62,873 nt of DNA, taken from the IMG/VR virus record IMGVR_UViG_3300009154_000059, positions 1 to 62,873 of that record, one strand, 5' to 3'. The DNA comes from a virus. Its lineage: Duplodnaviria > Caudoviricetes. Shown here piece after piece: positions 12,360 to 39,104 of the stretch; the stretch's first letter is position 1, and every line of letters begins with the position of its first letter. The notes beneath the pieces are model-generated. The model did not search any database and had not been told where the DNA came from. It saw only the letters and a program-made list of their open reading frames with translations. Position numbers and translations under genes: made by a program.

Positions 12360-12370
12360 AAAGGTTTTAT

Positions 12371-15073
12371 TTATTTTATTTGACTAACTGTTTTTGTTCC
12401 TATATTTTGTAAAGCAACTTTTATTCCTGCTTCATTTATCCATTCATTTGTATCTGCATATTTCCAAGAATTACCATCATATCTATAAAGCCTCAAACAA
12501 TAAGTATCATTAGCAGAGTTTCCATCATTAGATGGATGTCCTATAATATTAATTCTAACATTATCTTGAAATTGTGTATTTCTTAATCCAGGAATATCAT
12601 TTCCAGAGAAAAAAGCTTTAACTGCTTCTGCTCCTCTATCTGTTCTATTAGTTGGTCCAGAACATTTGTCAGCAGAAGTTCTAATTTTTGTTAAAGCATC
12701 ATCTAAAATATTCTTTTTAACATAATTAGGAAATGCCTCATTTAACATTGATGCAGGTATTTTAATTACCTGTTGACTGTCTTTTTTATCATTTGTAATA
12801 TATAATTCTCCAGAACCATCACTATATTTATTTCTTAATGTAAATGTAGTACCTGGTGTAGAAAGTAATTTATTTAAAGTTTCTATATTTCCTTGAGAAG
12901 ATTTTTGAGTATCAGGTCCTCCTAATTCTAGTTGATTAGACTTTGCTAAACTTAATATTTGTCTAACCATTTCAGTATCATGGTAAGAGGGATCATTTGC
13001 AGATGCATTTGGTTTATAAGTCAAACCTCTTTCTTTGTATTGTCTTTCAGGAGATAATTTATTAACTATTTCAGAAGTTTTTTCTTCAATTTTCTTAGAA
13101 GCTTCTTTTGCTTTTGGAGCTACCATTGAATAAATTTCATTTGCTCTATTTATAGCTACCTTTGCATTGAGAGAAATTTTTTGACCAAAATAATCATTTA
13201 CAAATGCTCTTGCTATGCCTTCTTTTGAAGTGCCTTTATATTTATTTATAAAATCATCAAATGGTGATGTTTTACTAAATTTATCAAAAGATTGTGGTAC
13301 AGGTACAACCCCACCTACAGAAGGTAAAGCTGTACTTATTTGTTTACTTAAACTATTTCCAAATTCGTTTTTCATAGTATAAAGATCTTCTGCAGTAACT
13401 AACTCTTTAGTTCCTGATGCATCTAAAACTCCTTTTAATTTTCCTATATATTGTTTTACTTCTTTATTAGCTTGTAAAATTTCTTTATCAGAATTAACAG
13501 AGTTTAATATTCCTTTTTGAGTATCAATTCTTCTTTCTAAATCTAATCTATTTCTTAAATATTCTTTTGTGTTTTTATCTGTATTTTTAGATTCTAAAAT
13601 AGAAGGATTAACTAAAAATTTATTATATAAACCATTATAATACTTATCTATTGCTTTACCTCCTTGATTAATTATTTCTTGAGGTACAACAGAATGTAAA
13701 TACTTTTCATCTAATTTTTGTTTTTCTCCTGGAGTTATTAATTCTCCATTTTTACTATACTCTCCTTCTAAAGAATTTAAATTTTTATTTATATTATCTA
13801 AAGTTAAAGGATTAACTTCTGTTGATATAGCACCAGATACTGTTAATTTTGGTGTTGTATTTTTATTAGGATCTTTTAAATCTAATTCTCTTTCTTTTTG
13901 AAAATAAGAAAGTTGAAATTCTTTAGCATCTTGATTTAATTTATCATATTTAAATTGTAGTTCTTTAGACTTATCTATTTCTTGTTGATAAGGATTTTCT
14001 TTTAATGTTTTTTTAATATCTTCATAAGCTAAGTCTTTAGATAGATTATCCAAAGTTTGGTGTGTATAAAGTTGAAATTTTAAACTATCTAAATCAGATA
14101 CACTATTAAGTTGTTCTAATTCTTTATATTTTAATTTTTCTATTTCCCCACTTTTTAAATAATCATTAGCATCTTTTACAGATGCAGATAACCTAGCTAT
14201 TTCTGATTTGGTTAAATTTTTATTTGTAGCAATTTCTAGAGCCACATCATTTATTTTATTTTGAGTATTTTTAATAGTGGATTCATATTTATTATTAATA
14301 TCATTAATAAAATCATCTCTTGTTTTATCTTTAAAGTGATAAGCACTACTTATTCTTAATTGTTGAATATCTTTTTCATCTAAAGAATCTTTAAAAGTAG
14401 AAAATAATTTAGAAGCTGACTTTCCTTTTGTATTTAACTCAAGCATAGCTTGATCTACAATAGGGTTTCCATTAGCATCTCTTTGTAATTCCATTGAATT
14501 TCCTATTCTTTTATAAGGAATATCAATAGTATTATCGTACTCATGTATTTTATCTGCAATATCTCTTAATTTTTTATTGATATCTGTATATTCTACATAT
14601 TGACCATTAAAAGATGCTTTTAAATTTTTATCATTTGCATAATTATGTACTTGTTGAGAATAAAACCAATCATTATCTGGAGAAGATTTTCCATCTTTCT
14701 TTGCTGCTTCCATATCAGCAAATCCTTTTTTTACTTTAGCTGTAGAACTAACAGCATTTAATACATTTTGATCTTTAGCTAATTGATTAGTCATTCCATT
14801 AACAGAATTGACTAATTGAAAATCAGAAAAATCTCCTGCTCCCACCCATTTTAAATTATTACCAAGTTCATTAAGTTTAGATTGTAAATATTGTTTATCT
14901 ACATCTCTATATACATCTAGTCCTGCTACATTGTCTATTGTAGATTGTATTCTTTGAATCCCTTGTTCATATTGTTGTTGTTTAGCCATTCCAACTTTGA
15001 GAGCTAAATCATTGTTTATCTCTGGAATGTACTGTGAGAATTGTATTGGGGAATTTTCGGAAAATCCAGCCAT
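12371..15073 (-). CDS. Large virion cargo/ejection protein (900 aa, helical/coiled-coil)
   Basis: Long ORF immediately upstream of the RNAP gene, the usual position of crAss-like ejection proteins. Function inferred from synteny. Confidence 0.65.
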   Translation of the reverse strand: MAGFSENSPIQFSQYIPEINNDLALKVGMAKQQQYEQGIQRIQSTIDNVAGLDVYRDVDKQYLQSKLNELGNNLKWVGAGDFSDFQLVNSVNGMTNQLAKDQNVLNAVSSTAKVKKGFADMEAAKKDGKSSPDNDWFYSQQVHNYANDKNLKASFNGQYVEYTDINKKLRDIADKIHEYDNTIDIPYKRIGNSMELQRDANGNPIVDQAMLELNTKGKSASKLFSTFKDSLDEKDIQQLRISSAYHFKDKTRDDFINDINNKYESTIKNTQNKINDVALEIATNKNLTKSEIARLSASVKDANDYLKSGEIEKLKYKELEQLNSVSDLDSLKFQLYTHQTLDNLSKDLAYEDIKKTLKENPYQQEIDKSKELQFKYDKLNQDAKEFQLSYFQKERELDLKDPNKNTTPKLTVSGAISTEVNPLTLDNINKNLNSLEGEYSKNGELITPGEKQKLDEKYLHSVVPQEIINQGGKAIDKYYNGLYNKFLVNPSILESKNTDKNTKEYLRNRLDLERRIDTQKGILNSVNSDKEILQANKEVKQYIGKLKGVLDASGTKELVTAEDLYTMKNEFGNSLSKQISTALPSVGGVVPVPQSFDKFSKTSPFDDFINKYKGTSKEGIARAFVNDYFGQKISLNAKVAINRANEIYSMVAPKAKEASKKIEEKTSEIVNKLSPERQYKERGLTYKPNASANDPSYHDTEMVRQILSLAKSNQLELGGPDTQKSSQGNIETLNKLLSTPGTTFTLRNKYSDGSGELYITNDKKDSQQVIKIPASMLNEAFPNYVKKNILDDALTKIRTSADKCSGPTNRTDRGAEAVKAFFSGNDIPGLRNTQFQDNVRINIIGHPSNDGNSANDTYCLRLYRYDGNSWKYADTNEWINEAGIKVALQNIGTKTVSQIK

Positions 15074-15158: not shown

Positions 15159-18100
15159 TTAGAAAGTTTTAAATGCTTTAACAATATTTCCATTTACATT
15201 TTTCTTTTTAATTGTTTTTCCTTCTTGAGATTCTTCTTTTTTCTTTTTCATTCCTTCAACTGTACCATCTTCATTATAATAATATTTAAATCCTTCTGGA
15301 GCTTGTTGTTTTTTAGAAGTATTAGAAGCCATTTTTCCAGTTACATCAAAGTCTACATATCTAGGGAGTTTAATAACTCTACCATCAGGACCAAATGTAA
15401 AATCTGGATGAAGAGCCATTCCCATGTTATAATCCATATTCTCTCTTTCATTTTGAGCTTCTTTTGCTCCCATAGATTGTAAAGCATATATTTTATCTCT
15501 TTCTGTATTAGCATCAGCCATAGATTTAAGTTTAGCTGCTTCAAAGTTATTAGCAACATTTCTAACATTAGCATCATTGAAAGAGTTAATGTTTCTATTA
15601 TATACTCCTTGATACCCTTGTTGATTAATGTTATATTCTTTACTACTCACTTGCCCTAATATATCAGCCATTTGAGCAGCAATAGCAGCTTGAGCAGCAG
15701 GGTTATTTCCTGCCATTTTAGAAGCTTGTCTTCCTTGAGAAAGAATAGCATTTCTTTCTGCATCTGCTGAATACTTATATGGAGTTTCTTGCATAGGATT
15801 TATTTTCCCTACAGTAGGAGAATAAGGTTGAGAGTTTAAAGCCATTATTTCTCCTGTTAGTTGTGTAGGAGAAAGCCCTTTATGATAAGCTGGTTGAAAC
15901 CCTCTTATAAGATTAGTAGCTAAAGATTCCCAAGGGAATTTTTGTTTAACAGGTATTTGCTCTAGCTCTGTATTATCTACTGGTTTTGCTGCAGGGGTAG
16001 CAGGTTTATTTTCTGCAGAAGTATTATATATATCATTTATCTTTGCCCAATATTGTTCTGTTCTTGGTCCAAAATAACCTTCCTCATTACTTCCTAATAT
16101 TTTAGTTGTATTTTCTCCTTTTTCTAATTCTTCTGGAGTTAATCCTAATTTTTTACCTTGATCTGTTATACCTCTATTTTTTCCTTCTTTTTGAATTATA
16201 CTAACAGCTTCTTTTGGAAAATATTGATGGAATTTTTTTTGAAACTCTTTAACATCATTTCCTTTTCCTTGTGCTTTGGCTTTTATATATTCATTCATTA
16301 ATTCTTGATATTGTTCTTTAGTTAACTTAGAACCATCAGCACCTCCACCCTCTGCTGCTTTTTTTATTGTTTTACCATTCTTAGCATTTTTAGGAAGTTC
16401 TCCTTTAGCTAATGTATGGCTTATCTCTCCATTCTTTGCAAACTTTTCTTGAGAGACTTCTTTTCCTAATAGATTGGAAAGATAGTCTGTTGTTTGGTGT
16501 ATATGGTCTTGATATGCTGCTAGTTTTTCTTTGTCTTCTGCTAGTGCTTTTAGTTTCATTGTGAGTCCTAAATGTTGTGCTTCTTTTGTTTTATCTGAAA
16601 GTGCTCCAAATACTGTATTAGAGTTAGGAGTTGTAGAAACTATTTTTTCTAACTCTTTTGTATATTTTTGTTCTTTAGGAACAATAGTTTTATTAACAAT
16701 ATTTTTTACTTTTTGATTAGCATATTCTTCTGGTAAATCAAATGATTTTAATAAATCTTTATTTGTATTAAGATTACCATATACAACTGCACCATCTTGT
16801 GTTACAGAAATAGGTTCTTGTTTTTCTATCTCTACATCTGCTTCTGGAGAATAACCACCATCTTGCATTACAGAAAGACCTATTCCTGTTCTTCCTTGAT
16901 GGTCTTTTTCAAAATGAGAATTACCATATGCATTATATGTTAATCCTTTTCCTGGAGAGAAAGGATTATAAGAAACTGGTTCTACTTCTCCTCCCCAATG
17001 AGTTTGTAGCTCTCCTCCTGTTTGATAAGTTTTTAAACCTGATTCTGATACTGGTGTATATTCTAAATCTTTTAAATGTCCTCCTGATCTATAACTAGGC
17101 ATATCTTCATGTGCATAATCATAATAGTCTTTAGCTGTATGGTCTCCAAATTTAGTTATTAATTGAGGAGTCCAATCATTAGATACATATCCTCCATCTT
17201 TCATATAACTATTATTTTGTTCTTGTATTTGTTTTCCCATAGAGTTTTGAAATATTCTATTTTGTTTTCCTTTTAAACTTCTACTAAGTCTATTAATATC
17301 TCCTGCATTACCAAATGCTTGATCTGCTGCCCCTCCTATAAAACCTGTTATTGGTTTTACAAATGTACTAGAACCTGGTACAATAAAATCTGAAAACTGT
17401 CCTGCAAACTCTCCAGCTTGATAACCTGCATTATTATTATATGCACTTCCTATAGCTGTATTACCTATATTAGCTAAAGGAGAAGCCACTGAAGAAAATC
17501 CTCCCCCATCTTGATAAGTTTTTATATTATCTGTAGAGCCAAAAGGCACATATCCTTGGTCTGAATATATATCATACATAGGACCAAAGTTATTTATTCC
17601 ATCTTGAGCTATTGGAATATATGCTCCATCTTTTGCTGCTCTTAGTATATCATATCCTGTTCCTTGAGAAGGAAATACAGAGTTAGTAGAAATAACATTA
17701 TCAAATCTTTCTTTTCTTCTTTTCTTATCTACATCTGTAGATTGACTTAGCATCTCTTGTACTCCTGCTATTCTATCTTGTTGTTGGAGTTTTTTCTTTT
17801 GTTGTTTTTCTGAATCAAAAGCATTTACAAGAGAAGGAATTTGATTAATAGCCCCAGCTAACATAGCAGGATTAAAACTGGAAGAAGAGCCAGAACCTAT
17901 TGGTGTTTCTCCTATAGTTTGTTGATTTTGACTTATAGTAAAATTAGAATCAAAATTATTATTATAAGTGGGTAACCCAGACTCTAAAGTAGGATTATAA
18001 ATAGGTTCATTAATATTTGCTCCAGGAATAGTTAATAATGCATTATCAGGACCATATTGAGGAGTTTGTAATATATTAGGTATACCTACACCACTCTGAG

Positions 18101-18221
18101 CTTTTTTAATTAATTTTTTAGCTTCAGGGTGAGCAGAGAAGAATTCTTTTTCTGTTTTATATTTTTTGTAAAAAGCAGCTTCTGATTTAACTCCTGCAAT
18201 TTTAAGAAATTGATCTTTCAT
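15159..18221 (-). CDS. Large virion cargo/ejection protein (1020 aa) with repeated phi-[QK]-x-GG motifs
   Basis: Long ORF with Gly/Ala-rich hydrophobic stretches and about 12 motifs such as AQDG, YQDGG, MKDGG, YQTGG, MQDGG, AKNG. Located in the cargo gene cluster. Confidence 0.65.
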   Translation of the reverse strand: MKDQFLKIAGVKSEAAFYKKYKTEKEFFSAHPEAKKLIKKAQSGVGIPNILQTPQYGPDNALLTIPGANINEPIYNPTLESGLPTYNNNFDSNFTISQNQQTIGETPIGSGSSSSFNPAMLAGAINQIPSLVNAFDSEKQQKKKLQQQDRIAGVQEMLSQSTDVDKKRRKERFDNVISTNSVFPSQGTGYDILRAAKDGAYIPIAQDGINNFGPMYDIYSDQGYVPFGSTDNIKTYQDGGGFSSVASPLANIGNTAIGSAYNNNAGYQAGEFAGQFSDFIVPGSSTFVKPITGFIGGAADQAFGNAGDINRLSRSLKGKQNRIFQNSMGKQIQEQNNSYMKDGGYVSNDWTPQLITKFGDHTAKDYYDYAHEDMPSYRSGGHLKDLEYTPVSESGLKTYQTGGELQTHWGGEVEPVSYNPFSPGKGLTYNAYGNSHFEKDHQGRTGIGLSVMQDGGYSPEADVEIEKQEPISVTQDGAVVYGNLNTNKDLLKSFDLPEEYANQKVKNIVNKTIVPKEQKYTKELEKIVSTTPNSNTVFGALSDKTKEAQHLGLTMKLKALAEDKEKLAAYQDHIHQTTDYLSNLLGKEVSQEKFAKNGEISHTLAKGELPKNAKNGKTIKKAAEGGGADGSKLTKEQYQELMNEYIKAKAQGKGNDVKEFQKKFHQYFPKEAVSIIQKEGKNRGITDQGKKLGLTPEELEKGENTTKILGSNEEGYFGPRTEQYWAKINDIYNTSAENKPATPAAKPVDNTELEQIPVKQKFPWESLATNLIRGFQPAYHKGLSPTQLTGEIMALNSQPYSPTVGKINPMQETPYKYSADAERNAILSQGRQASKMAGNNPAAQAAIAAQMADILGQVSSKEYNINQQGYQGVYNRNINSFNDANVRNVANNFEAAKLKSMADANTERDKIYALQSMGAKEAQNERENMDYNMGMALHPDFTFGPDGRVIKLPRYVDFDVTGKMASNTSKKQQAPEGFKYYYNEDGTVEGMKKKKEESQEGKTIKKKNVNGNIVKAFKTF

Positions 18222-18233
18222 TGTTATAATTTT

Positions 18234-21077
18234 TTATTGTGAATATTTTTCTAACCATCCTCCTTTTTGTGGAGTGTTGTAATTAGTCCAGTTAGTAAGT
18301 TGGTCTAGGTTAACTAATCCTTTTTGTTCTTGTCTTATTCCATTTTGAGCTAAAGGAGTTTCAATAACATTTTTTGTTCCTTTGCCAAATTTAATACTTT
18401 TTTGTCCAGGTTTCATTAATTTAGTTTCTCCTGTTTCTTTTGATGTTCCTATTAATGGTTCATATACTCCTTCCATTGTAATAAATGAATTAGGGTTTGA
18501 TAGGTTTATTTCTACTTGCTTTCCCCAATTATCAGGATTCCAATATCCATTATTATCTTTAATAATACTTCCTTCTTGAGAAATAGATTTAGGTTTCCAA
18601 TCAAGTCCTTCTTGATAGTATTTCATCTCTCCTCCATTCTGAAATTGTTTTCCTGTATTCTGATAATATTCTGCTTCTCCTTCTATTGAATTAAGATTAG
18701 AATATTGCATAGGATCTACAAACTTTTTAAATATTAATTCATTTGGTACTAATGAAAATTGAGGATTAATCTCTTTAAATCTTTGTACATCAATATCAGC
18801 TTCTCGTTGTTTTCTATTATGATAATTATTAAACACTTCTTCTGTAGAAGTAATCTCTGGTCTTTTTTTCAATCTTTCTTGAAAAGCATAATCAGGATTA
18901 TGTACTATATCAAAGTTAGTTCTGTTATTAGCAAATTGCCAAGCATGTCTATTTTCATGTGCTAGCGTTTTATCTTTTTCTTCTTGAGATTGTATATAAG
19001 GCATATCATATCCAAAATTAATCTCATTAGTTCTTGGATTATAATTTGTTCTTTTTATAGATTGATCATATTTTAAATTAGCAAGAATAGGGTTATTATA
19101 CATATCAATACCATTCTGTGCACTGGCTTTTGTTTTCTTTGCATACTTACCATTACTAGGGGCAGGACTATTTGTTCTTGCATATGTAAATCCTACAGCT
19201 CCTGGCATAGACATCCCTCCTTGTGCTATAGGTTTGTAAGCTACTGGATAAACATATCCTCCCATTTGATAATGAGGAGTCATTGTTCTTGTGTTATATG
19301 GCTCAAGAGCTAAATTTTGTAATGTAGATTCTCCATTAGCAGGATACCACTTATAACTTGTTTCACTTCCTCCTAGATTTTGATTCACTCTATCTGTTAC
19401 ATCATAATATTTAGGAGCAACAAACTTATCTGGAAATATAGGTAAATCAGCTTGTATATTATTGTCAGCATTATATACTACTCCTTCAGGATTTAAATCT
19501 TCTATATTATGTATATTTCTTTTTTGTAAAGGAGGTGTAGGATTATTAAAATTAATATTAGGTTTTACTATTACTGGTTGTTCTGGTTTTTTATTTTTAT
19601 TTAAATAACTTTTAGGAACACCATCCATTCCATATTGTTTAACTCTTTGTATCTTCTCTTTTTCTGTAAGTAAATCAAAAGGTTTATTTGCTATATTGTT
19701 ATAAGAGCCAAAGTTAACTATATCTGAATTTTTTACAATAGTTTTTGAAGTTTTTGGTAAAATTCTTCTGTCAAATAATTGCATAGGAGCATCAATATTT
19801 ATAGCTCCATATGCAATTTCTCTTTGAATATATTTATTTTTATCAATATTTTTTCTATAATCATTTTTTGAAATATTAATATCATACCAATTACCTCCTA
19901 TTATTTTAGAATTGCTATTAAAGTTATTAAAAGCTTTATCATTTTCTTTATGTGTATCTTCAGGTTTAATATTAAAGCTTGATAATCTTGGATAAGATTT
20001 ATACCCTTGTTTTGTTATATAAAAATCTTCTACTTTTTTACTATTATTATATAAAGCAAGACTGTCTTGTCTTGTAGCTTTTCCTCCATTTTGAAATTGT
20101 CCTCCCCAAGCTGGAGATTTCCATTGAGGACCATTAATAGTTCCTTCTCCTACAAATCCTGTAGGAAAACTTACTTGAGAATTATTATAATTTTCTTGAT
20201 GTTCTTGCATTGTTCCACCATCAGCATGTTGCTCTAACCAACCACCATTTTTTTGTTTAGGAATATCCATATATGTTTCAGCCCCAAGTGCTCCTAATAG
20301 TGCTCTATTATAATTTACTCCTGCTATTGTAGAAGGAGCAATTGCATGTGGTAATAAAGTTAATGGAATATAATTACCGCTTCTATTACCTAATGAAGCT
20401 ATTTTATCTGCTATACTACCTGGATTTGTATTATACATATTTCTTGTATAACCTGCATTCTCAATAAACCCAGGACCTATAGCACTCATAGCATTTATTG
20501 TTCCAGAACCATAATTTCCTTCAGAAAAATCATCAGCAGCTTGGTAAGCATCAATACCAGCACCTGCAATATTTCCTATTTCTCCAATTGCTTGAGCATA
20601 TGGGTGAGGAATAAAATTACCTATTTGCATTAAATCTGTAACTACATCTAGTGGAGTTAATACATTTTTTTTAAATTGTTTTTTTACTTCTTTAGCTTTT
20701 CCTTTTTCATCATCATATTTTTTTACAGCTTCAGATCTATTATCTTGAGTTACATAAGTTTGTCTTTTAGCTAAATCTTTTTGTTCATTTTTAAAAGCAA
20801 TAGATTTAGGATGTTTATTAATTCCAGTAGTATGAAATTTTTTTTCATCTTCTTGCTCTTTTTTTAATTCTTGAAGCTGTAACTCAATTCCTTTTTTTTG
20901 TCTAGAGTTTATAGTTTGTGTTCCTTCTTGAACCTGTAAAATATTATCTAGCCATCCTCCATGTTGCATATTAACATCACTCTTTCCACAATTATGACAT
21001 ATATGCATATCTTTCTGACTAGAATCAGATTTATTCCATGTGTGTCCACAACTTTGGCATGTTACTTTTTCTTTCAT
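18234..21077 (-). CDS. Modular virion cargo protein (~947 aa): N-terminal Zn ribbon, GG-delimited modules, zincin metallopeptidase module
   Basis: Start reassigned to ATG 21077 (MKEKVTCQSC...), just past the upstream stop at 21079. Contains CxxC..CxxC, HENRH at 18945-18959 with downstream EGEA, and repeated QxGG/GGWL motifs. Confidence 0.7.
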   Translation of the reverse strand: MKEKVTCQSCGHTWNKSDSSQKDMHICHNCGKSDVNMQHGGWLDNILQVQEGTQTINSRQKKGIELQLQELKKEQEDEKKFHTTGINKHPKSIAFKNEQKDLAKRQTYVTQDNRSEAVKKYDDEKGKAKEVKKQFKKNVLTPLDVVTDLMQIGNFIPHPYAQAIGEIGNIAGAGIDAYQAADDFSEGNYGSGTINAMSAIGPGFIENAGYTRNMYNTNPGSIADKIASLGNRSGNYIPLTLLPHAIAPSTIAGVNYNRALLGALGAETYMDIPKQKNGGWLEQHADGGTMQEHQENYNNSQVSFPTGFVGEGTINGPQWKSPAWGGQFQNGGKATRQDSLALYNNSKKVEDFYITKQGYKSYPRLSSFNIKPEDTHKENDKAFNNFNSNSKIIGGNWYDINISKNDYRKNIDKNKYIQREIAYGAINIDAPMQLFDRRILPKTSKTIVKNSDIVNFGSYNNIANKPFDLLTEKEKIQRVKQYGMDGVPKSYLNKNKKPEQPVIVKPNINFNNPTPPLQKRNIHNIEDLNPEGVVYNADNNIQADLPIFPDKFVAPKYYDVTDRVNQNLGGSETSYKWYPANGESTLQNLALEPYNTRTMTPHYQMGGYVYPVAYKPIAQGGMSMPGAVGFTYARTNSPAPSNGKYAKKTKASAQNGIDMYNNPILANLKYDQSIKRTNYNPRTNEINFGYDMPYIQSQEEKDKTLAHENRHAWQFANNRTNFDIVHNPDYAFQERLKKRPEITSTEEVFNNYHNRKQREADIDVQRFKEINPQFSLVPNELIFKKFVDPMQYSNLNSIEGEAEYYQNTGKQFQNGGEMKYYQEGLDWKPKSISQEGSIIKDNNGYWNPDNWGKQVEINLSNPNSFITMEGVYEPLIGTSKETGETKLMKPGQKSIKFGKGTKNVIETPLAQNGIRQEQKGLVNLDQLTNWTNYNTPQKGGWLEKYSQ

Positions 21078-21078
21078 A

Positions 21079-21945
21079 TTATTTGTAAGAGATTTGAGTT
21101 TCTTGGGTGAGGAATTGGCTGACAAGATGAATGTCAGATTTGTCGTCTAAAATGTGTCTGACTCTAGAATCTTTAGCTCTAAGAGGAGATTTTTTAAAAC
21201 TTCTAGTAGAGTAGTCCATATTACTTTGATTTACTACTTTATCTATAGATAAAGATTCACAAGATGTATTAAATAATGGTACTTGTGCAGATTTATTTAG
21301 TGCCCAGAAAGTGTTATACTGGTAAAAATTATCTGATTTAGTAAATGTTATTGTTTTAGAATCTGTGTTATATATAGGGTAGAGATTATAAGCTTGTAGA
21401 TTATTTAGAGGTTTAGCTACAAGATTAAGAACTCCTGTTGATTGTTGATTATTATATACAATAGCTTTATTAAAATAATCTGTATTTGTCTCCACTTTTG
21501 TATTATAATTAAATACTCCATCTGGTATAGAAAGATATTTAAATGCTTTTGTATAGTCTTTTACAGAGTGAAGAATCTCATCTTGATATTGATAAGAAAA
21601 TGGGTATTCTATAATATAAGGTTCTATTGTACCATAATATTTATTATAGTTTTGTATATCTGTTAAATGTCTCCATAAACATGCTGTTTGAGCTTGTACA
21701 TATTTAGCTTCTGCATAGTCTGTTATAGTAAAGGATGCTAATGGAAATGTTTTAGATGTTTTACATTTACCTGTAGAGGTAAGAGTAATTGTAGTTACAT
21801 CTTGATTTACAGAATATCCTTGTCCTAAAATTAATTGTTTTTTAGAAACATTAGTAGCTAAAGTGACATTAGTATTTGTTGTAATGTCAAAAGGTCCTGC
21901 TTGAGGACCTGCTTTAGTTAGCTTTATTACAATTTGTTTTGACAT
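21079..21945 (-). CDS. C-terminal part of tail stabilisation (muzzle, P22 gp10-like) protein, with an N-terminal small beta domain
   Basis: LWRH..NKYYG..PYIIE..FNKAIVYN resembles the C-terminal region of crAss-like stabilisation proteins. The first ~65 aa are visibly homologous to ORF 32715..32960. Confidence 0.55.
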   Translation of the reverse strand: MSKQIVIKLTKAGPQAGPFDITTNTNVTLATNVSKKQLILGQGYSVNQDVTTITLTSTGKCKTSKTFPLASFTITDYAEAKYVQAQTACLWRHLTDIQNYNKYYGTIEPYIIEYPFSYQYQDEILHSVKDYTKAFKYLSIPDGVFNYNTKVETNTDYFNKAIVYNNQQSTGVLNLVAKPLNNLQAYNLYPIYNTDSKTITFTKSDNFYQYNTFWALNKSAQVPLFNTSCESLSIDKVVNQSNMDYSTRSFKKSPLRAKDSRVRHILDDKSDIHLVSQFLTQETQISYK

Positions 21946-23417
21946 TATACTGTTGTTGTGGTAGTAGTGGTTAATGGTATTTCAGAGGAGAAACAAGTAG
22001 ATATTTGAGATAGAGTATCTGGTATATGAGCTAGTGTTATTCCTTCTACTAATGTATATGGAGAGTTTTTATCTAAACTCCATAGTTTACCTGTATCATC
22101 TATAATAAATATTGCACAATTACATTCATATAAATTACTAGGAGTTATAGTGGAAATAGTTATATCATATTCTATTGTTCCTGTTGGGTAATCATATTGA
22201 GTTAAATAATATATATTTGTGTTTGTATCTAAGTTTAAGAGAATAAGTTTTTTAGTTCCTGTATATATTAAATTACCAATAGGAACTCTATTCTCTGTTA
22301 TAGTAAATTTAGGAGTAACTGTAGATGTTGTAGTGTTGATTTCAGAAACCATTATTCCTGTATTATTAACAACTATAATTGTATCATCATCTTTTGCTAC
22401 TATTCCTGATGTTATTACTACTCCTGAAGGTATAGATATAGATCTATTAAATGTAGCTGAGAATGGTTTAATGTTTATATCCCAAATATTTATTGTAGAA
22501 GTTATACTCCATAAATAATTAGAGGTAAATGCTAAAGCTGTAGCACTTGTAAATCCTGGAATAGTAATAGAGTTCATTATTGTATCATTAGTAAAATAAT
22601 ATACATTATTATCTGTAGCAGATATTGCATCACAACAATCTGTTAATACAGGAGCAGAAGTTGTGGTGGTTGTTGTAGTATTACAATCACATGTAGCTTT
22701 TTCTACTATAACTCCTCCTTGTATATGTAATACAAATCCATTATAAACTCCTTCTTCTGTAAAATACCAACCATCTTCTACTAATGTGCAATCTGTAGAG
22801 TATTGGTCTTTATATATTATACTATTAACATTATAAGAAGCTGCTTGTACAGAGAATCCTTGAGGTACAACTTCTATAGGACCTGCTGCTTTAATTAATG
22901 TAGCTGCATTACAAGCTTCTGTAAAGTTTATAAAAGTTGTAGTAAGTACTCCTGATATTTTATATCCTGTATATAGATAGTTAAATATAAGATTAAAAGG
23001 TCTTTGGCATATAGTTGTAGTTGGTGTAGGAGGCACTGTCATAATAGCTGTAGCTTCTAAGTTGCAACTTGTTTGTATAACTGTTGCAGTTAAGTTACAA
23101 TTAGGGTTTAATGTTGTAGTTGTAGTAGTTATTGGAGGTATTATTCTTTGTGTTGTAGATGTAGTGGTTGTAACTTGTTTATTAGTATCTCCAACTAATG
23201 CTGTAAAATTACCTTCTATATCTGTACAACAACCATTAAGCCCTGAATAAAAGAAATTATTCTCTGCTATATAAAAATTAGGAATATAACTATGGAAAGA
23301 ATTCCAAGATTTTGTATTAACTCCATAAGATATAGTCCAAGACTTATTACAAAAAAAGTCTGGATCTGTTAAATAAACTTGTGTTCTAGTTTTTACTTCT
23401 ATTAAATTATCTTCCAT
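21945..23417 (-). CDS. Middle part of tail stabilisation protein plus Thr-linked beta-rich accessory domains
   Basis: N-terminal NKSWTISY..WNSFHSYIP..NNFFYS segment, then several poly-Thr linkers and a beta-propeller-like region. TAATG coupling to the next gene. Confidence 0.55.
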   Translation of the reverse strand: MEDNLIEVKTRTQVYLTDPDFFCNKSWTISYGVNTKSWNSFHSYIPNFYIAENNFFYSGLNGCCTDIEGNFTALVGDTNKQVTTTTSTTQRIIPPITTTTTTLNPNCNLTATVIQTSCNLEATAIMTVPPTPTTTICQRPFNLIFNYLYTGYKISGVLTTTFINFTEACNAATLIKAAGPIEVVPQGFSVQAASYNVNSIIYKDQYSTDCTLVEDGWYFTEEGVYNGFVLHIQGGVIVEKATCDCNTTTTTTTSAPVLTDCCDAISATDNNVYYFTNDTIMNSITIPGFTSATALAFTSNYLWSITSTINIWDINIKPFSATFNRSISIPSGVVITSGIVAKDDDTIIVVNNTGIMVSEINTTTSTVTPKFTITENRVPIGNLIYTGTKKLILLNLDTNTNIYYLTQYDYPTGTIEYDITISTITPSNLYECNCAIFIIDDTGKLWSLDKNSPYTLVEGITLAHIPDTLSQISTCFSSEIPLTTTTTTTV

Positions 23418-23418
23418 T

Positions 23419-26400
23419 TTAAGCTATTGTAAAATCACATAGTTCAAACCATGTAGACAAACTATTATTATCTGTATTTACTCCTAATACTTCTCCTTTT
23501 ATTTTTAATGTAGTGAATGGATTATCACTAGAGAGAGTTATAACTCCACTACCATTATTTGTACTCAATCCATTAGGTAGGTCTAATAAACAAGTTAATG
23601 TATTACCAGATATTACAGATTGACAAGCATCACAATTTATTATATTACAAGCTATACCATTTGTAGTGAATGTAAATAACTCTTGATATTCTAAATGTGG
23701 GTATGGTGTTCTAGGAAATACACTAGCATCTTGCTCATAGTATACACTATAATTAACTAGCCTTAGTTTAACATTATTTACAGGAACTGCAAAATTTAAT
23801 GTAAAATCTGCTTGTACATCTCCTGTAGCATTTTTACCCATATATAATGTATTAGGTCTATAAGAAGGTAAACAAGCTGGTGTTACATTAGAACCTGGGT
23901 GTAATATAACTAATTTATTAGCATCTGTAGATGTTACATTAATACTTATACCATTAACAGTAAAAGAGTTTGTAGGTAGTGGTATATTATGTACAGTTGT
24001 GCAACATTGTGAAGGTGATTGTGTTGTAGAACTAGTTGTTGTAGTTGTAGGAGTTTGTGGTCCTGGTATATATGTTGTTGTTTCTATATAAAATTCATTA
24101 GTAGATGGATCATATTTAATGTTTGGATCTAATGGAATATAATCTAATTTAGTTATAATAACTCTATCAAATTTAGAATCATAAACTCCATGTAATCCTA
24201 TACCAGTAAAATGATTGTCTATAGGCACATTAGGGAACCATCTAAGTATTTCAAAAGCTAAATGGTCAGTAAAGAATCTATTCATTCCTGATCCCATTTG
24301 AGATAGGTCTTCTATTTGTGTTCCTCTTACTAAAAATACTTGTCCTCTTTTAGCATCTATTGTTATTTGTCCTTGAGGAATTTTTAATAAAAATTTATTT
24401 TGAGAACCTACAAATCCTAAATCTGTTTCTGCAAAATCTACAGGAGGAGTATCTCCAAATATTTTAGTACCTCCTAAATAAGCAGCTTTAGGGTTAGTAG
24501 AATTCATTGTTAATAAAACATTATACAATAATGATTTATTTTCAAATCTAGCTAATATTGTTTTGTTCTCTATACCATCTAAAGATGTTAGTTTTCCATT
24601 GTTTTGAGGAAAATCAAAAAAAGCTGTTGGAGAATAACTTAACCAATTATTTACTCTTACATCTGCATTTTGATCTTGTGCATCTGAGTATATTGCTCTA
24701 AAAGGATAATTAGTGTAACATAGTTTAGACTGCCAGTCTAATGGAAGATGGGAGAAATAATTTTCTTTATTTTGTTTAGAGAAAGTTGGGTTGTAGTGAT
24801 AGGTGTTATCAAAATTAATAGATACAAAATTTTCTTGTACCCAATCATCAGGAATACCTGTTGTAACATGTGGCCAAAAATCCCCTTCTTTATTATTAAA
24901 TGCTTGTCTTAAATCTGTATTATAAGAACTCTCACAATAGAAATTAGGAATACCATAAGCAAATAAGTAAAACTTACCATCATAAAATGTACCATAAGTT
25001 CCTGCTATACCATCAGCATTAGAGTTTGCTATTGTTGCAGGATCTGATGGACAATCAAAATTATGAGCTTTTATAGATATTAAATTCTTAAAGTTTCCAG
25101 AACCTGTCACATAATCAAATAAAATAGATCTAGAAGAATGCCAATACTTAGGATAACCAATATTTCCTAACTCATCATAAAATATTTCTGCATCATCTGC
25201 TGCTCCCACTTTATTATCTGTAAAGAAAGGAACTTTTGTTTTAAATGCAAATCTTGATATATATGTATCTCCTCCAAATGCTGTAAACTCTGGTTTGTAT
25301 GTTGCAGAGTCAAATATTTGTTGTGCTCCTGTATCTATAGTTTGATAAGAGTATATTTGCCCCCATTGATTTGTAATTATATTTTTTAAAGAAGCATAGT
25401 AAGAAACTACTGTTATATCTTTTTGTCTCTCTGGTGTTGTACAATAATTTGCATCAGATATTGTATATCTTGATTTATCCTCTATATAGGGAGTTGCTCC
25501 ATTTTGTAAAGAAGGAGTTTGATTAGGATATAATAGAGCACTTACAGGATTATTGTTTCTAGTTTGTTTTGTTTTTAGATATACAGAAGTTTCTCTTTGA
25601 TAATTGTTCATAGGATTTGCTTCTCCTACAGACTGTATAGCTGAAACAATATATTGTTTATAATCTAACTCTCTTTGTTTATTTCCACTATTAGTAATAT
25701 CTGCAGAGTAGTCATAACTAGCTGTAGAGTTAAAAGAATATGCATAATTCTTTCTTGTAATACCATTAATATATATTTGAAGATATGTTTGGTAGGTTGT
25801 AAACATAGCTGTCAAACTAAAATCAGAAGTAATTGAAGCTATCTCATAAGAAGATTTTAAAGCTACTTGTTGTGCTTCTTTTGTTATAAGTCTATATTTA
25901 GCATTATTTTTAACTTCTACATGATGTCCAAACCCTCCTCCATACATTACATTCTCTAGTTTTAAAACATTTCCTAAAAAAGGTTGTCCAAAAGAAGTTT
26001 CTGGAGAATTAAATATTTGTCTATATGGTTTATTAATACTAGAATTAAAAGAATCTATTGGTGTTTCTTTACTACAATCTAATAAACTTCTTCTACCTAC
26101 TGTAGGATTTAAAAAATCTCCCCCAGGACCCCAATCAGGTGATGTTATACTACTAGAGGTTGTTTTTGTATGATAACTTTCAACAGTGCCTGGGCAAGGG
26201 TTAAAATACCCTTCTTGATGATTATTATTAAATCCTCCGCCCACATCTACTCTAATTTCTCTTCCACAACCTTTAAAACCTGGTAAACCTGCAACAAACC
26301 ATCCTGTTCCACATAAATAATCATTTTTTGGTATATATGTAGTGTTATTATTAGTACTAGGATCTTGCCAGTCTATGTTAAACCCAGAGCAATTAGTTGA

Positions 26401-28487: not shown

Positions 28488-29192
28488 TTAATTGTTTAAA
28501 TATTTTAAAAAATATTTATTATCTATATTTTTTCTTAGTTTAGCTGTTAAAAAACTATAATTAATGTTATATTTTTCCGCAGCATCTTTAGCACAATCAA
28601 AAATTTCTTGTGTATTTAAATTAATTACTTTTTTAGCACTTTGATGCTTTCCTCTTTTGATTCCAAACATAGGGTGTTTTTCTCCTGTTCTACCATAATT
28701 AGGGTTTTTTTCACCAGTAGATCCAAATCTAGGATGAAGTTCTTTTGGTTTTCCTTTCCAAAATCCTATATTACCATAAGCAGGATGGTCTTTACCAAAT
28801 TTACCAAACATAGGATTATTTTTTCCAGATAAAGCTAAACTTTGTTTTTTTCTAGTCTCTTCAGAAGCTAAACCATTACTCCCAGGAAATCTAACATTTA
28901 GCATATTAAAACCTAATTCTTTAAAATATTTCCAATAATAAATTTCTTTATTATTTAATTCTTCTTGTGTTATATCTCTAGTAAAACATTCTAAAATTTC
29001 TATTTTATGGTTTTCATAACCATATTTTATTAAAGATCTATATATTTTTATTTGTTCTTCACATTTTAAATTTTTATATTTACTTTTTCTACTAGCCCAA
29101 TCTCTACTTTGTCCAATATATATTTTATTACTAGGGCTTATTATTTTATATATAACAACTAATTTTTTAGTATCTATATTTTTTGTTTCCAT
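28488..29192 (-). CDS. GIY-YIG homing endonuclease with NUMOD3-like repeats
   Basis: VIYKI..KIYIGQS..R..Y..E..N catalytic pattern and repeated G(K/E)xN/HPxF/YG units. Probable start at METKN (29192), overlapping the 3' end of the upstream gene. Confidence 0.88.
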   Translation of the reverse strand: METKNIDTKKLVVIYKIISPSNKIYIGQSRDWASRKSKYKNLKCEEQIKIYRSLIKYGYENHKIEILECFTRDITQEELNNKEIYYWKYFKELGFNMLNVRFPGSNGLASEETRKKQSLALSGKNNPMFGKFGKDHPAYGNIGFWKGKPKELHPRFGSTGEKNPNYGRTGEKHPMFGIKRGKHQSAKKVINLNTQEIFDCAKDAAEKYNINYSFLTAKLRKNIDNKYFLKYLNN

Positions 29193-38630: not shown

Positions 38631-39104
38631 TTATTTCTTTATTAGATTTACTACACGTTTTACATGAGTCATATCCATTTGAGGATTATGTAATTCTCTG
38701 TGACAATTAGAACATAAAAGCATACATTTTAAAGCTTCATTTAGAATTTCATCATCGTTTTTATATTTTAGCATTTGAACTTTAATTTCAAAACTTTTTT
38801 CATCAGGGTTTATATGATGAAAATCAAAAGCTGCTATATTTTTATCATATCCACATTTTTCACATTTTCCTCCAAATAATTCTATTAATTCTAGTTTCTT
38901 TTGGATTCCTTTGATTGTATATAGATTAAGACCATGAATATCTTTAAATGCTTTATTATTTTTAGAAGACTTTTTATATTTAGCAGCATCATGACATTTC
39001 TGATCACAAAACTTTTTATCTCTTCTAAAGTTTTTCTTACCTTCTTTTTGCTCAAGTTTTTTATTACAAAACTCGCAGTATTTATCTTCTAAAGAAGTTT
39101 CCAC
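38631..39104 (-). CDS. HNH endonuclease with N-terminal Zn finger
   Basis: CEKC..FDFHH..CSNCHRELH; N-terminal CEFC..FCDQKC. GTG start overlaps the MCP stop (TAGTG). Confidence 0.85.
   Translation of the reverse strand: METSLEDKYCEFCNKKLEQKEGKKNFRRDKKFCDQKCHDAAKYKKSSKNNKAFKDIHGLNLYTIKGIQKKLELIELFGGKCEKCGYDKNIAAFDFHHINPDEKSFEIKVQMLKYKNDDEILNEALKCMLLCSNCHRELHNPQMDMTHVKRVVNLIKK

What the first reader, a model, noticed from the sequence alone, without database searches (positions are those of the whole stretch)
15159..21077. Cargo proteins punctuated by about 25 phi-[QK]-x-G-G motifs: candidate GG-cleaved polyprotein or encapsidation-tag system
Seen in 18234..21077: MQHGGWL, VQEG, QKNGGWL, HADGG, FQNGG (x2), YQMGG, AQGG, AQNG (x2), YQEG, SQEG, QKGGWL. 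Seen in 15159..18221: AQSG, AKDG, AQDG, YQDGG, MKDGG, YRSGG, YQTGG, MQDGG, AKNG (x2), AAEGG, SQEG. The motifs fall at boundaries between compositionally unrelated modules and are not evident in the neighbouring 900 aa protein. Known: double-glycine sites are processing signals for adenovirus protease, ASFV polyproteins and C39 leader peptidases. Inference: these genes are concatenated payloads either cut at the motif during maturation or tethered by it to the capsid/scaffold, giving a plug-in effector delivery system.
Basis: partly seen in the sequence, partly recalled or inferred. Interest (0 to 1): 0.8.

Follow-up and report, generated by a model that had tools for sequence, protein, structure and literature searches.

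The report
Gly-Gly seam motifs in crAss-like cargo
Two proteins that this uncultured crAss-like phage probably carries in its particle and injects are punctuated by a short, strongly conserved peptide ending in Gly-Gly, which marks the joints where enzyme modules are swapped in and out; whether the joints are cut is still unknown.

Summary
All 25 motif strings are at the stated places, and all lie in G columns conserved in homologues. The strict form [YFMW][QKR]xGG occurs 5 and 4 times against 0.17 and 0.13 expected, and 0 of 5000 shuffles reach that.

In 80 related loci its density is 1.9 and 3.1 per 1000 aa in these two families and 0 to 0.05 in every neighbour.

- **15159-18221:** this gene is the homologue of crAss001 cargo protein C1/gp45. 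The fold match to 7qog_M has Z 8.3 with 118 of 126 residues aligned.
- **18234-21077:** this gene is a polyvalent carrier. It has a mostly disordered core of about 230 aa, with three modules, one an ArdC-type zincin, inserted exactly at the motifs.

The plug-in reading is supported for the 947-aa protein. Cutting is not shown, and several results lean against it:
- HExxH is present in only 18 of 57 carriers.
- No conserved protease was found.
- 109 of 125 carriers end in a GGWL tail.
- The one solved copy, gp45 425-435, lies inside a modelled chain.

My best reading, at 0.45, is uncut hinge-and-docking seams of a beads-on-a-string cargo. This scan found the same motif before in at least ten other crAss-like genomes. 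I found no paper that describes it.

The parts
18234..21077 (-). P2, a 947-aa polyvalent 'carrier' cargo protein. It starts at the ATG at 21077, directly after the stop of the upstream 288-aa gene.
   Evidence: The homologue consensus starts MxGKVxCTCGWSW. The gene lies between the muzzle pieces and the C1 homologue in 78 of 80 related loci, and is fused to P1 in the other 2.
20970..21077 (-). P2 aa 1-36: zinc-ribbon N-module (CxxC...CxxC). In relatives it is replaced by a helical module or is absent.
   Evidence: three alternative N-modules, all joined through GG-WLD.
20952..20969 (-). Seam 1, MQHGGW(LDNILQVQEG), at aa 37-52.
   Evidence: pLDDT<50 segment 34-56. 62 HSPs end at aa 45.
20268..20942 (-). 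P2 aa 46-270: insert V1, predicted helical. About 100 of the 119 homologues lack it.
   Evidence: Coverage profile. Architecture '1-45 then 276-...' in many homologues. Helices 58-199.
20058..20255 (-). P2 aa 275-340: core block B. It contains QKNGGWLEQHADGG ... SPAWGGQFQNGG (seams at 20238-20252 and 20082-20096).
   Evidence: Invariant A323 W324 G325 G326 F328 G331 G332, yet pLDDT<50. HSP starts at aa 276 (78) and ends at aa 332 (30).
19272..20057 (-). P2 aa 341-602: insert V2, with a confident alpha/beta domain at 331-500 and a beta unit at 556-604. Function unknown.
   Evidence: No family found and no useful Atlas hit.
19110..19271 (-). P2 aa 603-656: core block C, YQMGG-YVYPVAYKPI-AQGG-MSMPGAVGFTYART...KAS-AQNG.
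   Evidence: Invariant G626 Y632 R634 S641 G643 T649 S652 A653. pLDDT<50 over 605-655.
18645..19109 (-). P2 aa 657-811: insert V3, a zincin module with HENRH at aa 707-711.
   Evidence: Fold likeness to the ArdC metallopeptidase 6sna_A: Z 6.5, rmsd 2.5, 62 aligned; Foldseek prob 0.69, E 1.0. About half of the homologues cover it.
18237..18644 (-). P2 aa 812-947: core block D. It reads FQNGG-EMKYYQEGLDWKPKSI-SQEG, then a small beta domain (841-910), then AQNG-...-NYNTPQKGGWLEKYSQ (C-terminal tail; seam at 18255-18269).
   Evidence: 96 HSPs end at aa 945. 109 of 125 representatives end in such a tail.
15159..18221 (-). P1, 1020 aa, homologue of crassvirus cargo protein 1 (C1, gp45 of crAss001).
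   Evidence: - Model residues 414-584 match 7qog_M residues 425-552: Z 8.3, rmsd 3.4, 118 of 126 aligned, rank 2 of 48,161 chains.
- The chain is 'Cargo protein 1 gp45'.
- Weak colinear profile matches exist.
- Synteny agrees.
18090..18221 (-). P1 aa 1-44: conserved helical 'head', ending in KKAQSG.
   Evidence: pLDDT 79-89. Invariant L6 K7 Y18 F27 K40. 62 of 67 long P1-like ORFs start with it.
17016..17675 (-). P1 aa 183-402: seam-rich, mostly low-confidence stretch. It holds AKDG, AQDG, YQDGG (17502-17516), MKDGG (17190-17204), YRSGG (17079-17093) and YQTGG (17013-17027), plus a Gly-rich helical part at 255-341.
   Evidence: The GG pairs are invariant or at least 90% conserved. Part 255-345 matches gp45 112-183, which includes its predicted membrane helix (E 3e-4 in a small database).
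16470..17015 (-). P1 aa 403-584: domain like the portal-binding domain of gp45. It begins ELQTHWGGEVEP, and the MQDGG loop lies at 16854-16868.
15219..16439 (-). P1 C-terminal half: long helices, the AKNG/AKNG/AAEGG cluster (16374-16439 and nearby), and the SQEG-KTIKKK...IVKAFKTF tail (15219-15230).
21079..28485 (-). Context: the muzzle protein in three ORFs (23419-28485, 21945-23417, 21079-21945). None has a motif.
   Evidence: PF25731 crAss_MUZ. p490 and p288 match the C-terminal ends of phrog_37948/15100.
3..15073 (-). Context: a 900-aa protein in the position of C2, and a giant ORF of at least 4119 aa in the position of the virion RNA polymerase proteins. Both are nearly motif-free.
   Evidence: p900 shows no BLAST likeness to gp46, so the C2 label rests on position only.

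Best explanation
The motifs are uncut seam peptides of cargo that is stored and ejected as beads on a string. Each seam is a Gly-Gly (or Asn/Asp-Gly) hinge set between hydrophobic anchor residues. The consensus is phi-[QKR]-x-G-G-x-[LIVM], often followed 4 to 11 residues later by A-[QK]-x-G. A second form is GG-WL[DE]xYxx-GG.

P1 is the C1 cargo protein. Its seams lie in the extended stretch that, in crAss001, runs from the tail barrel through the portal to the portal-bound domain.

P2 is a small, mostly unfolded carrier encoded right behind the muzzle gene. Its conserved, non-globular segments between the seams are the parts that are held somewhere in the particle, either in the tail or portal lumen or on the next cargo protein. 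The seams are the points where the chain can loop out. A folded enzyme can therefore be inserted there without disturbing storage or threading, and each insert brings a second seam so that both neighbouring segments keep their ends. This window's P2 carries three such inserts, one of them an ArdC-type zincin.

Shown:
- The motif is enriched, conserved and specific to these two families.
- It sits at insert boundaries and in low-confidence linkers.
- P1 has the C1 fold.
- A minimal core exists.

Inferred: that the seams stay uncut, that they dock, and where they dock.
For: 1. Specificity and conservation. GG pairs are among the invariant residues of P1 although they lie in pLDDT<50 stretches. 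Position +2 after the GG is L/I/V/M in 96% of P2-like copies and about 75% of P1-like copies. That is more constraint than a plain flexible linker needs.
2. All 6 strict or GGWL copies of P2 lie in pLDDT<50 segments between confident domains. 0 of 16 Pfam domain hits in 15 homologues contain a motif (I chose those 15 because they had Pfam hits).
3. Minimal carriers of 226-265 aa have 2 to 4 strict copies and no payload, so the motif belongs to the core and not to payload release.
4. The core blocks B and C are the most conserved parts of the family but are not predicted to fold alone, as expected of segments that fold on a partner.
5. 109 of 125 representatives end in GGWLxxY plus 0 to 6 residues, and W, L and D after the GG are invariant at both ends of the core. 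The residues behind the GG therefore matter, which a C-terminal cut would throw away.
6. In crAss001 gp45, AFGGWLNTQGG (425-435) are the first residues of the portal-bound domain, which is modelled from 425 to 552 with 126 residues in 7qog_M (passages of PMC10172136 read). GG 209-210 lies 4 residues before the tail-barrel-bound segment 214-245.
7. Two related loci, L058 and L059, encode a natural P2-P1 fusion. It lacks both the P2 tail and the P1 head, while 46 of 53 unique unfused pairs have both by a strict pattern and 4 more have near-variants of the tail.
8. A beads-on-a-string storage form, and one ejection protein following another through a contact, are proposed for phage N4 (passages of PMC13434306).
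Against: - No binding partner is identified, and no contact was seen in any model.
- The preference for phi and Q/K before the GG would also suit a protease site.
- This window's P2 carries a zincin, which Iyer et al. 2017 (PMC5512222, passages) predict to process polyvalent proteins.
- Neighbouring virion proteins hold fewer strict copies than composition predicts: 10 observed against about 20 expected. That would fit avoidance of a cleavage site, although the proteins are related and the test is weak.
- The gp45 argument rests on the deposited residue range and the paper's text. I did not inspect the coordinates, and 2 of the 128 positions are not modelled.
- GG is frequent in gp45 (21 pairs in 842 aa), so its nearness to the resolved segments could be chance.
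- L058 and L059 may be a single evolutionary event.
- Head and tail show no visible covariation.
Confidence: 0.45

Rival explanations
1. Maturation cleavage sites. A protease cuts at or next to the GG during assembly or after ejection, freeing the modules and the short core peptides, as in adenovirus, ASFV or the phiKZ and T4 head proteins. The protease could be the zincin in P2, a zincin in another cargo protein, an unrecognised phage protease or a host enzyme.
For: - The motif is short, sequence-specific, in accessible linkers and on both sides of each insert.
- P2 here has an HExxH module with ArdC-type fold likeness.
- Iyer et al. predict such processing.
- HExxH also occurs in the giant protein of two complete relatives, at 4244 of 4320 aa in G002 and at 912 and 1962 in G001. 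The end of this window's giant ORF is not in the record.
- The motif is mildly depleted in neighbouring proteins (10 against about 20).
- ZnR-less carriers start MAK-WLDKY, the terminus that a cut after GG would give.
Against: - HExxH is in only 18 of 57 unique complete carriers and 31 of 125 representatives, while 55 of 57 and 125 of 125 carry the motif.
- Peptidase_C48 was found in 0 of 6 records.
- The PHROG 'protease' family 20754 is in 1 of 5 relatives.
- Pfam on 91 of the 97 ORFs of 90 aa or more of the 100%-complete relative G002 gave only an M15 wall peptidase. P1, P2, the muzzle, the giant and two further ORFs were not scanned.
- Minimal carriers would be cut into peptides of 30 to 60 aa.
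- A cut at the usual C-terminal tail would remove 5 to 8 conserved residues.
- phi lies at P5, not P4 as in adenain sites (recalled consensus).
- The gp45 GGW copy lies inside a modelled chain.
Confidence: 0.2
2. Seams that are passive at the protein level. The Gly-Gly points are only flexible hinges that let domains unfold and pass the tail one at a time. The conserved flanks persist because these are the places where cassettes recombine, helped by the homing endonucleases that flank the gene.
For: - Modules are gained and lost exactly at the seams.
- HNH, GIY-YIG and EndoVII homing endonuclease genes lie between p288, P2 and P1: 15 of the 21 intervening ORFs scanned matched such families, and there are three in this window.
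- The two FQNGG copies of P2 share 17 of 18 bases.
Against: - The motif is conserved at the amino-acid level with varied x positions and in insert-free minimal carriers.
- In the colinear P1 family, which shows no cassette exchange, the GG pairs are invariant.
- About 15 bases of similarity is little for homologous recombination.
Confidence: 0.2
3. The motifs act after ejection. The aromatic-Gly elements (GGWLxxY, AWGG, YQxGG) would bind the host envelope (peptidoglycan, membrane interface) or drive refolding of the chain outside the tail, as Ca-binding Gly-rich repeats do for RTX proteins.
For: - Relatives carry wall-cutting modules (SLT, amidase + LysM, lysozyme).
- Tandem units of about 9 residues, phi-x-x-G-G-x-phi-x-[ST], occur in some P1 homologues.
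- gp45 and P1 share a Gly-rich segment that includes the predicted membrane helix of gp45.
Against: There is no likeness to a known wall-binding or RTX repeat family in Pfam. The copies are mostly single and dispersed, not arrayed.
Confidence: 0.1

Closest known systems
Cargo protein 1 (C1, gp45) of Bacteroides phage crAss001 (Bayfield et al. 2023, PMC10172136; PDB 7QOG chain M)
   Same: - P1 lies in the same block behind the muzzle gene and before the giant polymerase-associated gene(s).
- It has the fold of the portal-bound domain (Z 8.3, 118 of 126 residues).
- It shares a Gly-rich segment like the one holding gp45's predicted membrane helix and a long helical C-terminal part.
- gp45 has two GGWL elements of its own and several aromatic-GG pairs.
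   Different: - Sequence likeness is marginal: no PDB hit at E<=1 with the family profile.
- P1 has a conserved helical head that gp45 lacks.
- The strict phi-[QK]-x-GG form is not evident in gp45.
- crAss001 has no gene like P2 between muzzle and C1.
- The paper does not mention the motif or any cleavage ('cleav' and 'proteoly' occur 0 times).
Polyvalent proteins of phages and conjugative elements (Iyer, Burroughs, Anand, de Souza, Aravind 2017, PMC5512222)
   Same: P2 and its relatives string unrelated effector domains in one virion-associated polypeptide. These include ART-PolyVal, SprT-like and ArdC-type zincins, and wall hydrolases.
   Different: - Here the domains are inserts in one small conserved carrier.
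- Every joint carries a defined peptide motif.
- The paper's text has 0 occurrences of 'linker' or 'glycine' and proposes processing by the zincin, which most of these carriers lack.
Double-glycine and Gly-Gly-X processing sites (adenovirus protease, ASFV pS273R, C39 leader peptidases)
   Same: A short motif ending in GG, preceded by a hydrophobic residue, and recurring in proteins packed in a virion.
   Different: - The hydrophobic residue is one position further from the GG than in the adenain consensus (recalled, not from a call).
- No clan CE or C39 protease was found in the records searched.
- No cleavage evidence exists.
Ejection proteins of podoviruses: N4 gp50/gp51/gp52, and T7 gp14-16 (PMC13434306 passages for N4; T7 recalled)
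   Same: Large proteins stored in the particle and threaded through a narrow tail. [quoted passage not shown] Wall-cutting modules on an ejected protein are also known from T7 gp16 (recalled).
   Different: No conserved linker motif is described there, and there is no slot-wise exchange of payload modules.

Membership tests
Crassvirales cargo protein C1 (gp45-like) | Portal-binding domain fold (gp45 residues 425-552) | tested here: met
   P1 model 414-584 against 7qog_M 425-552: Z 8.3, rmsd 3.4, 118 of 126 aligned, 17% identity, rank 2 of 48,161 chains. The rows around it are helical hairpins at Z about 8, so the weight rests on the near-full coverage of a mixed beta/alpha domain.
Crassvirales cargo protein C1 (gp45-like) | Detectable sequence homology to gp45 | tested here: inconclusive
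   - hhalign of P1 836-880 to gp45 682-730: E 4.5e-4, probability 33%.
- hmmsearch of P1 255-345 to gp45 112-183: E 3e-4 in a small database.
- The beta domain gave E 1.6.
- The A1 profile against PDB gave no gp45 hit at E<=1.
Crassvirales cargo protein C1 (gp45-like) | Gene position between the muzzle gene and the polymerase-associated giant genes | tested here: met
   Window order, crAss001 order and the same order in 80 related loci. P2 is interposed.
Crassvirales cargo protein C1 (gp45-like) | Presence in virions, bound to portal and tail barrel | not testable with these tools
   Uncultured phage; no proteome or map.
Polyvalent proteins (Iyer et al. 2017) | Several unrelated effector or enzymatic domains in one polypeptide of a phage or plasmid | tested here: met
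   For the family, (30 of the 120 listed homologues scanned, chosen for length or a precomputed Pfam entry) found:
- ART-PolyVal in 4;
- SprT-like in 3, all below Pfam's cut-off;
- DUF6973 in 5, all below the cut-off;
- SLT in 2;
- Amidase_2+LysM in 1;
- Phage_lysozyme2 in 1.

For this window's P2, only the zincin is recognisable; V1 and V2 have no family.
Polyvalent proteins (Iyer et al. 2017) | Zincin-like metallopeptidase (MPTase) domain | tested here: inconclusive
   HENRH at aa 707-711. Match to ArdC 6sna_A: Z 6.5, 62 residues aligned; Foldseek E 1.0, prob 0.69. No Pfam hit for this P2.
Polyvalent proteins (Iyer et al. 2017) | Delivered into the host together with the DNA | not testable with these tools
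   Inferred only from the position next to C1 in the cargo block.
Protease-processed virion polyprotein (adenain-, pS273R- or C39-type GG sites) | A cognate protease encoded by the element | tested here: inconclusive
   - PF02902: 0 of 6 records.
- phrog_20754 'protease': 1 of 5.
- Pfam over 91 of 97 ORFs of complete G002: only Peptidase_M15_4.
- Pfam over 51 of 115 ORFs of G001: none.
- HExxH in 18 of 57 carriers.

An unrecognised protease or a host protease is not excluded, and the window is only 54% of a genome.
Protease-processed virion polyprotein (adenain-, pS273R- or C39-type GG sites) | Site geometry (M/I/L)-X-G-G|X or a leader ending in GG | tested here: not met
   The logo from 124 + 131 copies puts phi three residues before the first G, which is P5 if the cut follows GG, and a conserved L/I/V/M two residues after the GG. 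The adenain consensus is recalled, not from a call.
Protease-processed virion polyprotein (adenain-, pS273R- or C39-type GG sites) | Mature termini at the motif | not testable with these tools
   No proteomics. The only structural datum is gp45 425-552, modelled through its GGW.

The most novel reading that the evidence does not exclude
The seams are a coupling code. A peptide of 7 to 13 residues (phi-[QK]-x-GG-x-phi, GG-WLxxY-GG) is recognised by fixed sites in the tail and portal lumen and by the head domain of the next cargo protein. Cargo proteins would then be chained tail-to-head in gene order (P2, then C1, then the rest) and leave in that order. Any enzyme flanked by two seams would be loaded into the particle and injected. 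That would make this a natural, programmable protein-delivery slot used by thousands of crAss-like phage lineages.
Probability: 0.15. Interest if true: 0.85.

Novelty: new variant of a known kind. Interest (0 to 1): 0.6.

Why it matters
Crassvirales are among the most abundant phages, and how they store and inject megadaltons of protein is an open question (PMC10172136; PMC13434306 says the crassvirus ejection proteins still need to be resolved).

This family is large. The carrier core alone finds 4103 representatives at 50% identity (1194 at E<=1e-30), 244 to 2433 aa long. About 137 of the best 150 match the core in 2 to 6 separate pieces, which means they carry inserts (stretches counted by eye from the table).

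A defined seam peptide that tells where payloads can be inserted has three uses:
- It gives a concrete, testable handle on cargo loading and ejection order.
- It gives a rule for finding injected effectors, such as anti-defence or wall-cutting enzymes, in metagenomes.
- If the seams are docking handles, it offers a possible way to load foreign proteins into phage particles.

If instead they are cut, this would be a polyprotein maturation system in a phage group where none is known.

Tried and rejected
- **GenBank phages:** tblastn of P2, P1 and a minimal carrier against INPHARED gave no match. The family is known only from metagenomes.
- **PDB by sequence:** P1, P2, p900 and the profiles A1 and A2 gave nothing meaningful.
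- **Foldseek on the whole models:** nothing at E<=0.001.
- **Complex prediction:** P1 residues 1-60 with P2 residues 895-947 returned 'no answer' (score 0.10, mark 0.32). This counts neither for nor against binding.
- **Head and tail covariation:** none visible over 51 unique pairs; both are simply conserved.
- **P2 beta domain against the P1 portal-binding domain:** hhalign found no homology. The only P1-P2 likeness is the motif itself, GQFQxGGxIPxAQ to KxYxxGG (14 columns, E 0.004).
- **p900 against gp46 (C2):** BLASTP found no likeness, so the C2 label is positional only.
- **Pfam on the P1 head, the P2 tail, the alternative head of L058 and the small basic ORFs:** no family.
- **ESM Atlas on P2 331-604:** no useful lead.
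- **Protease searches:** Peptidase_C48 and a PHROG 'protease' family were not found as conserved genes.
- **Depletion of the motif in neighbours:** 10 against about 20 expected. I judged this too weak because the proteins are related.
- **Aromatic-GG enrichment in gp45:** I estimated this by hand only and it is not significant, so I do not claim it. The two GGWL copies are the unusual part.
- **GGA-GGA codon pairs:** 8 of 12 GG pairs give a Shine-Dalgarno-like GGAGGA. I took this as codon bias and did not pursue it.
- **Literature searches for a description of the motif** returned nothing relevant.


Full report
**Context.** The window is a 62,873-base IMG/VR virus record, estimated 54% complete, with about 28% G+C. 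Its minus strand carries a crassvirus structural block:
- terminase, 44662-46683;
- portal, 42073-44649;
- Crass_capsid major capsid protein, 39104-40663;
- ring proteins 2 and 1, 30596-31318 and 29167-30102;
- the muzzle protein, 23419-28485 (PF25731).

Two further ORFs of 490 and 288 aa match the C-terminal ends of muzzle-type PHROG families, so the muzzle gene is split in three here. Then follow the two genes of the finding: P2 (947 aa, 18234-21077) and P1 (1020 aa, 15159-18221). After them come a 900-aa gene and an ORF of at least 4119 aa that runs off the record. The same order holds in 80 related IMG/VR loci.

**The observation.**
- The strict form [YFMW][QKR]xGG occurs 5 times in P1 and 4 times in P2, against 0.17 and 0.13 expected. 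0 of 5000 shuffles reach either count.
- The loose form phi-[QK]-x-G is only 2- to 3-fold enriched.
- Each of the 25 sites nonetheless sits in a G column conserved among the homologues that have the column. The alignments are A1 (58 of the 120 listed P1 hits, chosen for full coverage) and A2 (56 of the 120 listed P2 hits).
- The enrichment is a family trait and is specific to these two families. In the 80 loci the density is 1.86 per 1000 aa in P1-like and 3.06 in P2-like ORFs, against 0 to 0.05 in muzzle, ring, p288, p490, p900, giant and unclassified ORFs.
- It recurs in 125 further representatives at 50% identity or less (2.56 per 1000 aa).
- A logo from 124 + 131 copies reads phi(F/M/Y)-[QKR]-x-G-G-x-[LIVM].
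- A second element is GG-WL[DE]xYxx-GG.

**What P1 is.**
- The AlphaFold model has mean pLDDT 61.6. It shows a confident helical head (1-44), low-confidence stretches (44-129, 183-261, 335-402), a beta-rich domain from 403, and long helices.
- Searched against 48,161 chains without a Foldseek prefilter, residues 414-584 match chain M of 7QOG over its residues 425-552: Z 8.3, rmsd 3.4, 118 of 126 residues, rank 2.
- That chain is 'Cargo protein 1 gp45' of crAss001.
- In the passages I read, Bayfield et al. state that residues 425-552 form the domain bound to the portal wing inside the capsid. They also state that residues 214-245 of the same protein are bound in the tail barrel, and that the roughly 179 residues between are thought to bridge the two.
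- Weak, colinear profile matches and the gene position agree.
- P1 is therefore the C1 homologue.
- Four of its five strict motifs (236, 340, 377, 399) lie in the low-confidence stretch just before the portal-binding-like domain. The fifth (452) is in a loop found only in its 12 closest aligned relatives.
- The family is colinear, so here the motifs are fixed linker features, with extra tandem copies in some members.

**What P2 is.**
- Homologues share only four blocks with it (aa 1-45, 275-340, 605-660, 815-945). The parts between are present in about a fifth to a half of them.
- In many relatives block 1 runs straight into block 2 through a single GGWL.
- The shortest carriers (226-265 aa) consist of the blocks alone. 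Their layout is an optional zinc ribbon, then GGWLD, then ...SPAWGGQFQMGG, then SxPGAVGFxYART...ASAQNG, then xEMxYYQxGLDxKPKSIS, then a small beta domain, then AKNG...NFTNYNKPQPGGWLxKY.
- In this window three inserts sit right after GGWLD, FQNGG and AQNG. Each is followed by a second motif copy.
- 76.8% of 641 inner alignment boundaries fall within 6 residues of a motif G, against 19.1% for random placement.
- The AlphaFold model (mean pLDDT 59.6) has confident domains at 331-500, 556-604, 660-810 and 841-910. It puts every strict or GGWL copy in a pLDDT<50 segment.
- The highly conserved blocks B and C are themselves not predicted to fold.
- The third insert has HENRH and resembles the ArdC metallopeptidase (Z 6.5; Foldseek prob 0.69).
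- Relatives carry ART-PolyVal, SprT-like, DUF6973, SLT, Amidase_2+LysM or phage lysozyme modules. None of these 16 domain hits has a motif inside it.
- P2 is thus a polyvalent protein in the sense of Iyer et al. 2017, but built as a slot-bearing carrier.
- The carrier profile finds 4103 representatives, 1194 of them at E<=1e-30.
- Motif number rises with length (Spearman 0.60 over 57 unique complete carriers).

**Cut or not.** Results that lean against cutting:
- HExxH is present in 18 of 57 complete carriers and 31 of 125 representatives, while the motif is in 55 of 57 and 125 of 125.
- Other candidate proteases are not conserved:
  - Peptidase_C48 was found in 0 of 6 records.
  - A PHROG 'protease' pair with a trypsin-like GDSGS is in 1 of 5 relatives.
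  - Pfam over 91 of 97 ORFs of a 100%-complete relative, whose 239-aa carrier has 4 strict copies, found only an M15 wall peptidase.
- Minimal carriers have nothing to release.
- 109 of 125 representatives end with GGWLxxY plus a few residues. W, L and D behind the GG are invariant at both ends of the core.
- In gp45 the string AFGGWLNTQGG is the start of the modelled portal-bound domain.

Results in favour of cutting, or that leave it open:
- The motif is sequence-specific, exposed and on both sides of inserts.
- This P2 has a zincin, and the giant proteins of two relatives have HExxH at varying places. The end of this window's giant ORF is missing.
- Neighbouring proteins hold about half the strict copies expected from composition (a weak test).
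- Some carriers without the zinc ribbon begin MAK-WLDKY.

I put cleavage at about 0.2.

**Docking.**
- Earlier notes of this scan suggested tail-to-head tags (e1-6027295, e1-6104624).
- In L058 and L059, P2 and P1 are one ORF that lacks both the GGWLxKY tail and the P1 head. The joint reads NFTNYNTM-AKNG-KALKKAQRG.
- Among 53 unique unfused pairs, 46 have both the tail and the head by a strict pattern. Four more have near-variants of the tail, two have an extra module behind it, and one is an ORF-calling problem.
- This fits a tail-head contact that a covalent link makes unnecessary. It may be one event, and I saw no covariation.
- The complex prediction gave no answer (see Tried and rejected).

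**Mechanism I commit to (0.45).** The motifs are uncut hinge-plus-anchor seams of cargo stored as beads on a string. This is the form proposed for the N4 virion polymerase, where one ejection protein is also thought to follow another through a contact (passages). In this reading:
- The conserved unfolded segments between seams are held in the particle.
- The seams are where the chain may loop out, so they are the only places that tolerate inserts.
- The GG-WLxxY-GG elements are handles at chain ends and joints.

Shown: the motif statistics, its conservation, its position at joints and in linkers, the C1 fold and the carrier-plus-insert architecture. Inferred: that the seams are not cut, and that they bind anything.

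**Novelty.** The parts are known kinds: a crassvirus cargo protein and a polyvalent protein. The seam motif and the slot-bearing carrier are not described in the two key papers. 'Linker' and 'glycine' occur 0 times in PMC5512222, and 'cleav' and 'proteoly' occur 0 times in PMC10172136. My five literature searches also returned nothing relevant. The library lacks most subscription journals. This scan has met the same motif in at least ten other crAss-like genomes, with the same open question.

Noticed in passing
window 21079-28485 (minus strand): The muzzle gene appears split into three ORFs of 1688, 490 and 288 aa. The two small ones match only the C-terminal ends of muzzle-type PHROG families 37948 and 15100. 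In related loci without the 490-aa ORF, the muzzle ORF is longer (about 1900-2030 aa against 1480-1750).
   Followed up: partly
window 28488-29213, 38631-39104, 49138-49998; relatives e.g. L003:9472-9996, L016:13699-14322, L018:6526-7194: Homing endonuclease genes (NUMOD3/phrog_314, HNH, GIY-YIG, EndoVII) are scattered through the structural block. In relatives they sit directly before or after the carrier gene: 15 of the 21 intervening ORFs scanned matched such families. They may drive the cassette exchange.
   Followed up: partly
L058:9719-13456 and L059:9827-13396: These are natural fusions of the carrier (P2) and C1 (P1) into one ORF of 1245 and 1189 aa. The fusion lacks the P2 tail and the P1 head and carries a different helical N-module (MAKKLTS...FFGAIAGG). 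That N-module also replaces the zinc ribbon in some stand-alone carriers (L030, L031, L045).
   Followed up: partly
L086:17325-18002 and L086:19429-19755 (complete relative G001, 93325-94002 and 95429-95755): Small lysine-rich ORFs of 225 and 108 aa lie outside the cargo block. The first has four copies of M/A-K-S-G-G-x-M-K-K-A-[KQ]-x-G, the same composite seam. They lie next to a DUF6321 ORF in a late-looking minus-strand block. The equivalent region is not in this window.
   Followed up: no
L087:2455-3741 and L087:3755-5023 (G001): Two adjacent paralogues match PHROG 20754 'protease'. One has a trypsin-like TNNHV ... GDSGS pattern. They are present in only 1 of 5 relatives searched.
   Followed up: partly
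window 3-12359 (minus strand): A single ORF of at least 4119 aa is open at the record's end, where crAss001 has three genes (gp47, gp49, gp50). Relatives have 4320 and 4390 aa, with HExxH motifs at different places (4244 in G002; 912 and 1962 in G001). None is present in the part visible here, and Pfam finds no family in it.
   Followed up: partly
window 15159-21077: 8 of the 12 GG pairs of the strict or GGW motifs are encoded GGA GGA, giving Shine-Dalgarno-like GGAGGA strings inside the genes. This is probably codon bias of an AT-rich genome.
   Followed up: no
L090:4749-7043, L088:70-3279, L090:9923-12013 (complete relative G002): The relative encodes a 764-aa protein with collagen triple-helix repeats, a 1069-aa DUF285-repeat protein, and several glycosyltransferases near its fibre genes.
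   Followed up: no
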